Origin: Opitutales bacterium
GTDB lineage: Bacteria; Verrucomicrobiota; Verrucomicrobiia; Opitutales; UBA953
Length of the DNA: 64,000 nucleotides
Assembly (NCBI GenBank): GCA_040398005.1
Contig: JBBAUX010000002.1
Location: 114,798-178,797, forward strand
Direction: 5' to 3'
In this document: positions 36,001 to 42,000 of the stretch, piece by piece
Numbering within the stretch: the first letter of the stretch is position 1
How the letters are laid out: each line of letters opens with the position of its first letter
Made by a program: the position numbers

Positions 36001-39000
36001 AGAAAAAGATCTCGACCAATATTTCCCAAAATCAGACCCTGCCTTTGCCTCAGTCTTCTCGGCTAAATTAGTTGCCACGAGCGAATCCTTAGTCACCGCG
36101 ACGAATCCAGAAAATTTTGGACCCAAGCTCGCGCGAATCACAGAAGCCTGTGCCGCTTTACGTTCGGATATGGAAACGATGAACAAAGAGTTCAGTCTGG
36201 AAAATTTAATTATCCTCCAGGCTCATTTGGCCGACGCCACGGCGGCCCTCGATTCATTCGCCGCATCGCTCGAGGGTTCACAGTCTAAAATTAATGCTTC
36301 CGCCGAGGAAATTACCGCTTTGTTTCAGTTGATTTCTCGTGGGGCCCGCGATTGGAAAGAAAAAACTGAAGCCTTTGGCCGAGAACCTCGGCCTTAATGC
36401 TGAACAGGCTTGCGGACAGGCAGGCCTCAAGCGTAAGTCAGAACCATCACTATTATGGCAGAACCTACCGATAAAATGGAGTCCATCATCAACCTGTGCA
36501 AACGTCGCGGGTTTGTTTTTGCTTCTTCCGAAATCTACGGCGGACTCAATGGATTTTTTGACTACGGCCCCTTGGGCGCGGAACTTAAAAATAATATCAA
36601 ACAGGCCTGGTGGCAGGACTTCGTTCACCGTCGCGACGACATCGTCGGTCTAGATTCAACCATCATTCACCATCCGACCACTTGGAAGGCCTCGGGTCAC
36701 ATCGATAATTTCACCGATCCGCTGGTCGACTGTAAGGAATCGAAAATGCGCTACCGCGCCGACCAACTATTTTTTGCACCGGTCATCGTTGCCGGAGAAA
36801 CGATTGGTTATGTTTCCGTTTTAGAAGATGAAGGTATGCAGGCTAAAGCCGAAGAATTGGCGAATGATTTAAAACGTAAGCTCGCTAAGCCTGGTGTCCT
36901 CGAGCCGATAAAATTAAAAGACTACACCGAATCTACTGCTGAACAGCACGCTTTAATTCCTTCTCCTGCTACCGGAAAGCCTGGTTCGCTCACCCCTCCA
37001 CGTTCCTTCAATATGATGTTCCAGACCTACGTGGGTGCGATGCAGGATGCTTCCGCCGTCGCTTATCTCCGTCCGGAAACCGCCCAAGGTATTTTTATTA
37101 ATTTTAAGAATGTCGTCGATACGGGCCGCGTGAAATTGCCTTTTGGTATCGCGCAAATGGGCAAAGCCTTTCGTAACGAAATCAACCCACGTAACTTTAT
37201 TTTCCGATCACGTGAGTTCGAACAAATGGAAATCGAGTATTTTATTTCACCCCAAGCGGATTGGCAAACAGCCCACCGCGGTTGGATCGAAGATTGTTTA
37301 GCCTGGTTTGAATCTATTGGTATTCCTCGTGCCAAACTTTCGCTTTATCCTCACCCTCAAGAAAAACTCGCCCACTATTCGAAGGGTACTACGGATATCA
37401 TGTTCGAATTTCCTTTTGGCGTACAAGAACTTCAAGGGGTCGCCGCGCGCGGTGATTTCGACTTAACGCAACACAGCCAAGTCTCGGGCCAAAAATTAGA
37501 TTGGTTCGATGAAGCAGCTAAGGCTCGCTTTATTCCTCACGTCATCGAGCCCTCCGTCGGCGTGGATCGTGTTTTCCTAGCACTGCTCACCACCGCTTAT
37601 CACGAAGACGAAGTGGAAGGTGAAAAACGCGTCGTTCTTAAATTGCCCATCCGCGTGGCACCCTTTAAGGCCGCCGTTTTCCCGCTGGTTAAGAATAAGC
37701 CGGAAATCGTTGAGCGTGCTGAAGCTTTATACCGCCGCCTCAAGAAACGCTTTAACGTGTTTTATGATGCGTCTGGCGCAATCGGCCGTCGCTATCGTCG
37801 CCAAGACGAAATCGGCACACCTTACGGTATCACCATCGACTTCGAGACGATTGAAAAAGGGGCCGGCGTGACTGTCCGTAATCGCGACACCCTAGAGCAG
37901 GTGCGTATGACTGAAGACGAAGTCGTTCGCTTCCTCGACGAAAAGATTAACGGATAACGACGGCACTGCCGCTCAGTTCTTCGGCGAATCTTGCGAGATG
38001 TCGCTTTCCACAAAGGGAAGCGGCTATCGTAAGATTGCGAAGTCCTTGCGGGAGGTGAGCTAAGAAATCGGCCCGACCTTTTTTCTTACCTAAATAAGCA
38101 TACGCTCCACAGGCTTGTAAGAGTCGTTGGGTCGCACCGATGTGCAGCAAGTGGCTGAATTCATCGAGTGAACCTTTCCAGCCGGAAATTTCTTTGGTGT
38201 GATCTTCGATTTCAATCCGCCATAAATCCATATCGCGACGCTTGAGATAGGGATCAAACATGAGCGACGCGTAATCGTAGAACATCGATCCCATACGAGC
38301 ACCCTGGAAATCGATTAACCAAGATTGATCATTCCTCACTAAAATATTTTGAGACTGGAAATCGCGGTGCAGTACCACTTGAGGCTGAGCTGATAATTCT
38401 TTAGCGAGTGAAGCCATGTCGTTAATTACATCACGCGAAGGCTTCTTGGTGACGCAGACATTGTCTAGGAAGTACTGACGTTCCCAACCGTAGAGTTTAT
38501 CGTTAAACGGCTCGTTTAAAGTGATTTGGGCCTGATTCATGGCCTCTGTGCCAATGCGGTGCAGGTGGGTTACTTGTTCAAGCGCCGAGGCGAATTGAGC
38601 CCAGGGAAAACTTTCATTCTGGCTCAATGACCAAAGATCAATCGTTCCTAAATCTTCTAATACTAAAAGTCCCAAGTCTTTATCTTCAGCAATGACGGCA
38701 GGAACATTCAGACCGTTCAGATGAAGAACTTTAGCGATATCTCCATAAATTAAATTTTCGGGGCGACTGTCATCATAATTACACAGCACAGAAGGATTTC
38801 CTTGCGCGTCTTGCGTGTGATAAAACTGTCTACCCGATCCGCCTTTAATCGCCGCACCTTCTGCAGTTAAAATAAGTCTGAGACGTTTAGTGGCATCCTC
38901 TATTTTTAAACTACCGCGTGCAGGTTTTTCTAATTCAGCTTTAACTTTTTGATATTCTTCGACCGTGCCTAAATCATGCCAGAACTTTGAGCTATCGAGA

Positions 39001-42000
39001 TAACCTTGCACGGATTGCGGAGCTTCTTGGAGGCGACGAAGGAAATGCTCAACGAGAGATTCAATCGTGGCAGGAGTGGTCTGAATAAATGCGCGAGAGA
39101 CAAAACAAATACCCGTGTATTGGTAGGCGGTCTCGGTTTTTCCTAAGCGATCACGCATGTCGGTGATGAGACCATCTTGGGTGATCCGAACGTTTTTATT
39201 CGGTCCCTCTTCACGCACAATCAATGTGGCCTCGGCATGGTTACTGGTGTGATAAGCGTAGGCATTTTTTACGTCGCAATCGCTTAAGATATCGCCGTTC
39301 CAGATAATTAACTGCGTGTCTTCAGGTGTTAAATACTGAGCAATATTGGCTAAGCCCCCGCCCGTTTCTAATAGCGTGGGCTCAAAAACTAAATCTACTT
39401 TCGCGGTACCCCAAGTGCCTTCAGGAAAAGTCTGTTTCCAGACGTCGGGGCAGTGGTGCGTGTTGATAATAAATCGTTGTACCCCGGCCTGACGGAGTTT
39501 TTCCATGGCGCGAAAAACTATAGGCTGTTCGCCGATGGGCAGAAGGGGCTTCGGGCAATTTTCCGTGAGTGGTCGGAGGCGCTGACCGAGGCCAGCTCCT
39601 AATATAAATGCAGTGGTCGGAAAATTATTCATGAGAGGGTTTGGAGCAGCGGGGGCAGATACCATAAATTTCCATAATGTGCGTTAAGTCGGTGAAGCCC
39701 TGATTTTTTGCAGCGATTTCAAGTTTGATCGTATCGCAGCCCGGAAGCTTTTCGATTAAGCCGCAGCGTCGACAAATCACATGGTGGTGATGGTGGTCAG
39801 GCGCTATCATCGCGTAGAGATTTTTTCCTCGTTCAATGGGGTGACGTTGGACGACGCCCGCTTCTTCGAGTGAGTCTAGATTTCGATACACTGTGACTAA
39901 ATCCAAAGTGCCGTCCCCGGCTGACTTATGAATTTCCTCCGCACTGATTGGGTTTTTGCACTCCGATAAAACTTTCAGCATGGCGAGACGAGGATTGGTA
40001 ATACGCAGAGCCTTCGTTTTCATCCGACTCAGGGCGGATTCTACCCTGGGATGGGGGTCGCCGTCGCAGCAGTCTTTGTTATGGAGGTGTTTATCGGGCA
40101 CAGGCTCTAAATTCGACTTCTATTATGACGTGGCAAGACGAATGGTCACTTGCCACCCGCCAATCTCTGGTTTGGCTATAATCTCGTATGTCCGAACCCT
40201 CGGCCCAGTCCCCATCGCCCAACTCCTTAGGGCTCACTCAATTTCAGGATTTCATTTCCAAAAAACCCTTCCCGCTTGAGTTGGGTGGTGAATTACCCGA
40301 ACTCACTCTGCGTTACGAAACATACGGAAAATTATCTCCCGATAAATCCAACGCGATTTTAGTACCTCACGCCATTAGCGGAGATCATCACGTGGCCGGA
40401 CGTTATCAATCCGATGATGCTAAACCGGGTTGGTGGGATGGATTTGTCGGACCGGGTAAAGCCATCGACACCGATCGTTTCTTCGTCATCGGAATTAATT
40501 GCATTGGGGGATGTCGTGGTTCGACTGGACCTCTCTCGATTGACCCAAGAACCGGCAAACCTTACGGCGGTTATTTTCCTGAAATTACTTTAGGCGATAT
40601 CGTCCGCGCGCAGCGTCTGGTTTTTCAACACCTCGGCATTAAAAAATTACACGCCATCGTCGGTGGATCCATGGGCGGAATGCAGGCATTACTTTGGTCG
40701 GGAGATTATCCAGAAGAGGTAGGTCGTATCGCGGTACTCGCCGCAGGGTTGAGTCAATCGCCCATGGCTATTGCCTTAAATGCAGTTTCCCGCGCCTGTG
40801 TTGAGACCGATCCGCAATGGCGGGGTGGACACTATCAACCCGGTGAAGGACCGGATAGCGGCTTAGCTATCGGGAGAATGATAAGCCATATCAGCTATCT
40901 TTCATCCACGGCGTTCGACCAAAAATTTGGCCGCGCCAAAGTGCCCGGCGCCAAACCTAACGATCCCGTTTACTGGGAGGTTGAAAGTTATTTGAAGCAC
41001 CAAGGAACTTCTTTCGTAAAACGTTTTGATGCGAATAGTTGGTTGCGCATTACACGTGCCGTTGATCGATTTGATTTAACTGCACGTGCGGCGGCAGGTC
41101 AGTTGTTTAAGAAAGTCGGACCCGATGTTCTAGCGATTGGATTTTCGAGTGACTGGCTTTATCCGACAAGCGAACTACGTATGGTCGTCGCGGCGGCCAC
41201 GGCGGTGGGCGTGAATGCCGCTTATTTGGAAGTGGTTACCGATGCTGGTCACGACGGATTCCTCATCCCCGATACGGGTCTGAGTGTCCGCCTGCACGCC
41301 TTCTTGGGTTAATCAGAGCAGGGGAGCGACCAGTTTAGAAACCGCCTCGAGGGCTTGTCCCTGCCAGGTGCGACTTTTCCGATAAATATCCTCCGAATAG
41401 GGCGAGCACTCCTGTTCGATTGAACTGATAAAATCAGCAATGTTATTTAGGGTTTTCGGGTGATTAACGCAGGCGGCAATTTCGTAATTAAAGAAGAGTG
41501 AACGCATGTCTAAATTAGCCGAGCCAACGATGGCGGTTTCATCATCAACCAAGAATAATTTAGCGTGCAGAATGCCTGATTTGTAAAACAGAATTTTTAC
41601 TCCCGCCTCTTTTAATTTTCGTAAATACCAGCGACGGGCGAAATCAAGTAAACGATGGTCCGAACGTCGCGGCAGAATAATTTTAACTTCAATATTTTTT
41701 CGGGCAGCACTCAGCAGTAGTCGAAACAAAGTCCGATCAGGAATAAAGTAAGGCGTCACGATGGTAATCGATTTTTCTGCGTCTTCGATTAATTTGATGT
41801 AGGCTTCCCAGAGAGGGTCGCCCACACAGTCGGGTCCCGAAGCAATAATTTTAATTTGAGTTTCTCCGCGGTGTTGCGGTTGGTGTCGGAGGATTTCTAG
41901 AAATTCTTTCGGCTCGCGATGGGTGGCCTGACACCAATCCGCGATAAAAACACGCTCGAGTGCTCCCGCTGCGGGTCCATCAATGAGGAAAGAACAATCC

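What a model noticed while it worked through the whole genome (the two positions that open the first line are those of the whole stretch)
37947..39665. No lytic transglycosylase of any known family, with a single-chain MurU-AmgK
The genus encodes no lytic transglycosylase of the SLT, MltB, MltA, MltG, RlpA or SpoIID families and no AnmK, yet keeps a recycling kit (AmpG, Mpl, amidases) and a natural fusion of a MurU-like uridylyltransferase to an AmgK-like anomeric kinase (g00434). Wall glycan must be cut and recycled without anhydro ends or by an unknown enzyme.
Evidence so far: 0 of 5 near-complete genus genomes for PF01464, PF13406, PF03562, PF02618, PF03330, PF08486, PF03702; MltG 0 of 71 and SLT 24 of 71 in the order. 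g00434: MurU NF045761 residues 19-242 (E 6e-33) and AmgK NF045759 residues 300-546 (E 1e-18); PDB MurU 8hhd/4y7t and kinase 3csv; fused in 5 of 5 genus genomes and one other family, adjacent separate genes in three others.
(Added by a program. Inside this text positions count along the whole contig: contig position 114,798 is position 1 of the stretch shown here. "Call 12" and the like, gene names such as g00115 and contig names such as C1 are that model's own, and its searches are not shown. The text may have been shortened before it was handed on; [...] marks where a part breaks off. The agent that wrote the report below was given it as the finding of a first reader that could run no searches.)

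Follow-up and report, generated by a model that had tools for sequence, protein, structure and literature searches.

The report
Anhydro-free cell-wall recycling with fused enzyme
These small freshwater bacteria appear to lack the usual wall-cutting enzymes of Gram-negative bacteria and instead seem to release, trim and reuse wall sugars with water-splitting enzymes that feed one fused two-step recycling enzyme; this is predicted from genes, not yet measured.

Summary
The fusion is real: one ORF joins a MurU-like nucleotidyltransferase to an AmgK-like kinase, spanning both domains in 53 of 61 genus genomes (Opitutales). Both halves score below NCBIfam cut-offs, but motifs, fold (MurU is the top hit) and the neighbours of split relatives (SpoIID, AmpG, DUF4922) point to MurNAc salvage. 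The absences hold: SLT 2 of 61 in the genus (phage-like loci), MltG 0 of 151 and AnmK 4 of 151 in the order. An 'unknown enzyme' is mostly unnecessary. The genus carries an exported NamZ exo-muramidase (53 of 61; lost from this assembly with neighbouring purine genes) nearest the disaccharide-releasing NamZ1 type, and a cytoplasmic GH20 in place of NagZ. This genome also has a SanA/UprA-like DUF218 protein, a family just reported to release strands from the lipid carrier by hydrolysis. Model: release, amidases, NamZ, AmpG, GH20, then the fusion makes UDP-MurNAc with no anhydro sugar, hence no AnmK. All 15 of 151 genomes holding kinase, AmpG-like and GH20 lack SLT and AnmK (two families only). 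No endo-cutter was found. New variant of known recycling; untested biochemically.

The parts
37947..39665 (-). Fused nucleotidyltransferase-kinase gene (P0001; probable start 39632, 561 aa)
38940..39611 (-). MurU-like nucleotidyltransferase domain (residues 19-242): GxGxRL, K39, NTHH, LETGGG, NGD125, W229-x-D231; no left-handed beta-helix
   Evidence: 4y7t TM 0.86, rmsd 2.3
37950..38870 (-). AmgK-like APH-fold kinase domain (residues ~266-572): GGSGR, EDLG, HRD435FQSQN440, IDFQG, YDxASL, QRLLQA
   Evidence: (3csv TM 0.74)
39625..40101 (-). Fur/Zur-like regulator directly upstream, overlapping the probable start codon; kept beside the fusion in close relatives
46229..47281 (-). Exported Amidase_3 (AmiC/CwlD-like), proposed to strip peptides from glycan; 6.5 kb from the fusion, not in its operon

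Best explanation
The protein is a single-chain MurNAc salvage enzyme (kinase: MurNAc, probably also GlcNAc, to the alpha-1-phosphate; transferase: MurNAc-1-P + UTP to UDP-MurNAc) at the end of a wholly hydrolytic, anhydro-free loop. Inferred steps: (1) a SanA/UprA-like DUF218 protein frees new strands from undecaprenyl-PP by hydrolysis, replacing MltG; (2) two exported amidases remove stem peptides, which Mpl reuses; (3) a Tat-lipoprotein NamZ (GH171, NamZ1-like) chews peptide-free strands from the non-reducing end into GlcNAc-MurNAc with ordinary reducing ends; (4) an AmpG-like permease imports it; (5) a cytoplasmic GH20 splits it in place of NagZ; (6) the fusion makes UDP-MurNAc directly, so AnmK and MupP are not needed. 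Shown: genes, motifs, fold, co-occurrence, neighbours. Inferred: every activity and the absence of anhydro ends.
For: Fold and motifs. Split relatives keep transferase directly upstream of kinase in 56 of 79 loci; in the deltaproteobacterial-type loci they sit beside SpoIID (17 loci), GT2 (15), DUF4922 (10) and an AmpG-like MFS (8), resembling the Tannerella salvage cluster. The genome's AmpG-like protein matches that MFS (28%, E 4e-37); its orthologue in G132 lies between anmK, a GHL10 gene, namZ and a GH3 gene. NamZ: 53 of 61 genus, 21 of 22 near-complete, 130 of 151 order; nearer 4K05/BfNamZ1 (E 7e-67) than 4JJA (2e-35), keeps the PEHG glutamate and, like 4K05, lacks the GRG arginine of 4JJA. 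TfNamZ1 groups with BfNamZ1 and releases GlcNAc-MurNAc from peptide-free glycan. GH20 without signal peptide, NIGGDE motif: a GH20 match in 37 of 41 genus genomes; orthologue in 28 of 35 kinase-bearing vs 51 of 116 other genomes, near namZ in three genomes of another family. All 15 genomes with kinase + AmpG-like also have GH20 and none has SLT or AnmK; 0 of 35 kinase genomes have AnmK. DUF218 protein: Pfam over cut-off, SanA-like not ElyC-like (E 4e-14 vs no hit), T121/H145/R148 kept; UprA hydrolyses the lipid-MurNAc bond and rescued a mltG-deletion phenotype. De novo MurA, MurB, GlmS, GlmM are present.
Against: No activity is measured. Both halves and AmpG are far below curated cut-offs. NamZ is missing from this assembly (gap inferred) and is in 130 of 151 order genomes, most without the kinase, so it is not specific to this pathway. 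The NamZ authors warn that specificity cannot be read from sequence and that intact sacculi are not substrates. The 15 co-occurring genomes are two families. 14 of 35 kinase genomes do carry an SLT. The DUF218 protein has Asp183 where SanA has Glu182, its clade includes colanic-acid-linked UprC, the family is in nearly all phyla, and I did not survey it across the genus. In the sister genus the kinase has no adjacent transferase (7 of 7). No endo-acting glycan cutter was found.
Confidence: 0.55

Rival explanations
1. The fusion is MurU-AmgK, but a lytic transglycosylase of unrecognised sequence or fold still caps the wall with anhydro ends; the cell discards the anhydro sugar and salvages only internal MurNAc.
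For: About 70 exported proteins have no Pfam or NCBIfam family; Pfam covered 478 of about 1245 ORFs; the assembly is incomplete; septal splitting normally needs an endo-cutter (general knowledge).
Against: Six LT families absent with ringing controls; lineage-built SLT and SpoIID profiles found nothing convincing in six frames (3 of 14 SLT rows were wrong-frame); no AnmK in any of 35 kinase genomes.
Confidence: 0.2
2. The kit mainly scavenges wall debris of other bacteria (Tannerella-style salvage) to spare de novo synthesis, and says little about how the cell cuts its own wall.
For: The closest characterised arrangement (amidase, NamZ1, AmpG) is proposed for salvage of foreign peptidoglycan; streamlined genome with many glycan-foraging genes.
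Against: MurA/MurB are intact, so there is no auxotrophy; NamZ is nearly universal and mostly single-copy in the order like a housekeeping gene, beside purine genes; Mpl implies reuse of matching peptides. Not exclusive of the main model.
Confidence: 0.13
3. The fusion handles another sugar: it is the missing GlcNAc-1-P uridylyltransferase half of a split GlmU plus a GlcNAc kinase, or a mannose/heptose nucleotidyltransferase.
For: No full GlmU in 5 of 5 genomes; a lone acetyltransferase half lies between glmM and glmS; a mannose-1-P model outscores MurU; Asn158 stands where P. putida MurU has Asp140 (the role of Asp140 is recalled).
Against: A separate 301-aa transferase is in 5 of 5 genomes, has Bacteroidales relatives at 51-58% (to P0241), and its ends resemble the primer-encoded ends of the monofunctional Capnocytophaga GlmU (orthology not shown directly). 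The fusion lacks the beta-helix of mannose enzymes, the kinase was found in only 35 of 151 order genomes, and relatives sit in wall-salvage clusters.
Confidence: 0.12

Closest known systems
Pseudomonas-type anabolic recycling (AmpG, NagZ, AnmK, MupP, AmgK, MurU)
   Same: AmpG-like import, Mpl, APH-fold anomeric kinase plus minimal MurU-fold transferase ending in UDP-MurNAc.
   Different: Two last steps on one chain in transferase-kinase order; no LT, AnmK or GH3 NagZ found; separate clade from proteobacterial amgK-murU, which also occurs in two other families of this order (E 7e-71 to 4y7t).
Tannerella forsythia salvage (NamZ1, NamZ2, AmpG, LytB; 10.1101/2021.12.02.470905)
   Same: Exported GH171 enzyme of the NamZ1 branch, Bacteroidetes-type AmpG, reducing-end disaccharide as substrate.
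   Different: This genus makes MurNAc de novo, has no LytB/SpoIID, keeps the genes unlinked, and has a fused MurU-AmgK.
Bacillus subtilis NagZ-AmiE-NamZ exo-lytic turnover (PMC8054146)
   Same: Sequential hydrolysis from non-reducing ends giving free MurNAc.
   Different: B. subtilis catabolises MurNAc via MurP/MurQ; that paper notes NamZ is mostly missing where AmgK/MurU is present, the opposite of this order.
E. coli UprA (SanA, DUF218; 10.64898/2026.10.14.759067)
   Same: N-terminal membrane anchor, Thr-His-Arg of the catalytic cluster, nearer SanA than ElyC.
   Different: Asp for Glu at the fourth position by my alignment; 52.9 bits vs SanA cut-off 363; here it would act without MltG.

Membership tests
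MurU | NCBIfam equivalog cut-off | tested here: not met
   114.6 of 250 and 44.2 of 370 bits
MurU | Minimal nucleotidyltransferase fold without beta-helix, with nucleotide and metal motifs | tested here: met
MurU | Sugar-site residues for the lactyl group | tested here: inconclusive
   Asn158 aligns with Asp140 of 4y7t; structure paper not held
MurU | UDP-MurNAc formation from MurNAc-alpha-1-P and UTP | not testable with these tools
   needs assay
AmgK | NCBIfam equivalog cut-off | tested here: not met
   67.5 of 550 and 28.3 of 500 bits
AmgK | APH fold with SxR, HRD..N, DFQ, YD..SL.D and QR motifs, gene coupled to murU | tested here: met
AmgK | Anomeric phosphorylation of MurNAc/GlcNAc | not testable with these tools
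   needs assay
Pseudomonas-type pathway | AnmK and GH3 NagZ upstream of AmgK | tested here: not met
   AnmK 0 of 35 kinase genomes; GH3 1 of 5, an 861-aa frame. MupP not searched
NamZ / GH171 | PF07075 + PF20732, catalytic Glu, export signal | tested here: met
   263 bits vs 26.9; PEHG; RRxF and lipobox by eye; gene absent from this assembly
NamZ1 subtype | Disaccharide release from peptide-free glycan | tested here: inconclusive
   nearer 4K05 and lacks the 4JJA arginine; TfNamZ1 itself not compared
AmpG | TIGR00901 cut-off | tested here: not met
   125 of 350 bits; context supports the role
GH20 | PF00728 + PF02838 and catalytic Asp-Glu pair | tested here: met
UprA (DUF218) | Thr-His-Glu-Arg cluster and membrane anchor | tested here: inconclusive
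   T121, H145, R148 kept; D183 for Glu
Mannose-1-P guanylyltransferase | C-terminal left-handed beta-helix and model cut-off | tested here: not met
   122.5 of 440 bits, profile positions 2-241 of 352 only; no beta-helix in the model

The most novel reading that the evidence does not exclude
Free-living Gram-negative bacteria of at least two Opitutales families build and turn over their wall with no lytic transglycosylase at all, and in this genus apparently no class A PBP: strands are released by a UprA-like hydrolase, so the sacculus has reducing rather than 1,6-anhydro ends, and are recycled by amidase, NamZ, AmpG, GH20 and a one-gene MurNAc-to-UDP-MurNAc enzyme.
Probability: 0.4. Interest if true: 0.8.

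Novelty: new variant of a known kind. Interest (0 to 1): 0.62.

Why it matters
Lytic transglycosylases and anhydro ends are treated as standard for Gram-negative walls (general knowledge). A lineage without them would show which jobs they really do and gives a natural test of whether the newly reported UprA release reaction can replace MltG. It assigns testable roles to an order-wide NamZ and an unstudied cytoplasmic GH20. It may also bear on the old failure to detect wall components in this subdivision (PMC5303756). A single-chain AmgK-MurU could serve as a one-gene tool for MurNAc-probe labelling or UDP-MurNAc synthesis.

Tried and rejected
Idea that the fusion replaces GlmU's missing half: demoted after finding the 301-aa transferase; two DNA pattern scans for the Capnocytophaga gene found nothing, so orthology rests on primer-encoded ends and Bacteroidales relatives. 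Eukaryote-type UAP/NagU (PF01704) 0 of 5, but no control rang: uninformative. Other muramidases or glucosaminidases: GH25 0 of 5, GH73 0 of 5, GHL10/DigH 0 of 5 over cut-off. Class A PBP 0 of 3 genus genomes, 1 of 1 in the sister genus. Candidate hidden cutters: L061:12369-13721 is GH50 agarase-like; the lipoprotein beside namZ in another family and the TIGR03790 protein beside the amidase gave no family in the Atlas; GH114 and Glyco_hydro_cc hits not pursued. Families 3D, SleB, Rpf, GH24, GH108, DUF3380, GH18/19 were not searched genome-wide; none appeared among 478 Pfam-scanned proteins. The V. spinosum essentiality paper and its 10 supplements held none of the terms searched. The careful tree did not finish; the quick tree was used. 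No complex prediction or read mapping was run.
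Full report
Observation. Window 37947-39665(-) is one ORF of 572 aa, probably starting at 39632. Its N-half matches nucleotidyltransferases and its C-half APH-type kinases; the MurU and AmgK models cover them but stay far below cut-off, and a mannose-1-P guanylyltransferase model scores slightly higher than MurU over only its first 241 of 352 positions. An AlphaFold2 model from 49 sequences (pLDDT 91, pTM 0.64) has P. putida MurU as best structural match (TM 0.86, rmsd 2.3) and 3csv for the kinase (TM 0.74), with no beta-helix. Ten motifs are kept in 114-120 of 120 homologues. 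Close relatives are titled Opitutales or Opitutae in lake metagenome bins. One match covers both domains in 53 of 61 genus genomes.

Spread of the fusion. With this query the kinase was found in 35 of 151 order genomes. Of the 30 loci examined: 8 fused, 1 apparently fused but frame-split, 9 with the transferase directly upstream, 5 in proteobacterial kinase-transferase order, 7 (the sister genus) with no transferase within the 3.8 kb fetched. Among 79 further loci from Verrucomicrobiota, Thermodesulfobacteriota and Acidobacteriota: 7 fused, 56 adjacent, 16 none seen. A quick tree of 70 kinase domains (chosen from 112 loci) needs 7 changes of the fused state, at least 4 forced by strong branches: a recurrent fusion of neighbours.

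Function by context. In deltaproteobacterial-type loci the pair lies beside SpoIID, GT2, DUF4922 and an AmpG-like MFS, much like the gtf-gtf-lytB-ampG-namZ1 cluster of Tannerella (10.1101/2021.12.02.470905, parts 1-4 of 6 read). This genome's AmpG-like gene (G000:C7:84235-85512) resembles that MFS; its orthologue occurs in 28 of 151 genomes and in G132 sits among anmK, GHL10, namZ and GH3 genes. That makes wall-sugar salvage the best reading.

Absences. SLT: 2 of 61 genus genomes over cut-off, in phage-like surroundings at the two loci opened; 0 of 9 in the family, 63 of 151 in the order. MltG 0 of 151. SpoIID 5 of 151, none in the family. MltA, MltB, DPBB 0 of 5 over cut-off. AnmK 4 of 151, none with the kinase. 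Also not found: GH25, GH73, GHL10, a NagZ-sized GH3, and class A PBP in 3 of 3 genus genomes. The wall itself is made: a full dcw cluster, FtsI, PBP2, RodA, FtsW, MreBC, MurJ, MurA and a MurC-MurB fusion are present, and sacculi were shown in another genus of this subdivision (PMC5303756, passages). Pfam scans covered 478 of about 1245 ORFs, chosen for export signals or wall-gene neighbourhood; 18 ORFs with N gaps were skipped.

[quoted passage not shown] This genome lacks it, but also lacks purE, purK, purN, a purF-like gene and prmA, which flank it in relatives, so this is an assembly gap. It has a twin-arginine lipoprotein-like leader and resembles BfNamZ1 (4K05) more than BfNamZ2 (4JJA), including loss of the GRG arginine. 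(b) A GH20 without signal peptide (G000:C10:63545-65281): GH20 matches in 37 of 41 genus genomes, the orthologue in 79 of 151 in the order, 28 of 35 with the kinase (kin are not independent). It lies 2.6-5.7 kb from namZ in three genomes of another family and behind a sodium:solute symporter in others. In family f3 the same 6 of 8 genomes have kinase, AmpG-like and GH20. (c) A DUF218 protein (G000:C10:38469-39113). A 2026 preprint (10.64898/2026.10.14.759067; abstract and passages read, supplements not seen) reports that E. coli SanA, renamed UprA, hydrolyses the undecaprenyl-PP-MurNAc bond, frees nascent strands and rescued a mltG-deletion phenotype. The protein here is SanA-like rather than ElyC-like and keeps Thr, His and Arg, with Asp where SanA has Glu; 17 metagenome relatives were found; its genus-wide spread was not tested.

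Mechanism (inferred). Release by the UprA-like hydrolase; peptide removal by Amidase_3 (window 46229-47281) and an Amidase_2 lipoprotein; exo-trimming by NamZ; import by AmpG; splitting by GH20; phosphorylation and uridylylation by the fusion; peptide reuse by Mpl. GlcNAc-1-P from the kinase could enter UDP-GlcNAc through a separate 301-aa transferase, since GlmU is split here: a lone acetyltransferase between glmM and glmS, no full GlmU in 5 of 5 genomes; split GlmU is known (PMC4358021, passages and primer table; 10.64898/2026.06.23.733835, passages). All 15 genomes with kinase and AmpG-like gene have GH20 and lack SLT and AnmK. Open: what cuts mature strands internally; NamZ1-type enzymes do not attack intact sacculi.

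Against. No assay; cut-offs unmet; NamZ is far commoner than the kinase; 14 of 35 kinase genomes have an SLT; the co-occurrence rests on two families; the DUF218 family is near-universal and its clade includes a colanic-acid-linked member.

Literature. Searches for a natural MurU-AmgK fusion or this pathway in Verrucomicrobiota (listings only) showed no such report; subscription journals are largely not held, and the MurU structure paper was unavailable. PMC12346966, 10.1101/2025.03.21.644609, PMC13046382, PMC10465942 (passages), PMC13691567 (abstract) and PMC12283558 (passage, supplements searched) added nothing decisive.

Verdict. Real, conserved fusion working most likely as AmgK plus MurU; real loss of recognised lytic transglycosylases; a coherent hydrolytic replacement built from known families in a new combination. 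New variant of a known kind, interest 0.62.

Noticed in passing
L092:4665-5417 (G000:C8) and L085:14950-15855 (G000:C7): GlmU is split: a lone archaeal-type acetyltransferase half between glmM and glmS (with an N gap), and a separate 301-aa transferase of a large Verrucomicrobiota/Bacteroidota family, likely the monofunctional GlcNAc-1-P uridylyltransferase.
   Followed up: partly
G000, G087, G030: No class A PBP transglycosylase domain in 3 of 3 genus genomes, though an LpoB-like lipoprotein is present (L055:14155-14745); the sister genus has one.
   Followed up: partly
L113-L118, L121: In the sister genus the AmgK-like kinase stands without an adjacent transferase (7 of 7); whether a MurU lies elsewhere was not checked.
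   Followed up: no
L136-L140: Two other Opitutales families carry a proteobacterial-type amgK-murU pair, a different clade and gene order, suggesting separate acquisition.
   Followed up: partly
window 44661-46181 (-): TIGR03790 exported protein of unknown function directly downstream of the amidase gene.
   Followed up: partly
window 36455-37957 (+): A eukaryote-type glycyl-tRNA synthetase gene (name by recall from its sequence) converges on the fusion and overlaps its 3' end by 11 bp; kept in close relatives.
   Followed up: no
L143, L147: Fused proteins of the genus clade sit in records titled Polynucleobacter and Enterobacteriaceae with the same neighbours as this genus; probably mislabelled bins rather than transfer.
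   Followed up: no
L222-L224: Tiny-genome (0.8-0.9 Mb) family f7 lacks NamZ (0 of 8) but 4 of 8 have SpoIID, the reverse of the rest of the order.
   Followed up: no
L031:16140-18473: MurC-MurB fusion, and a small LysM gene between murD and ftsW in the dcw cluster.
   Followed up: no
L061:12369-13721: Exported GH50 agarase-like protein that Pfam misses.
   Followed up: yes
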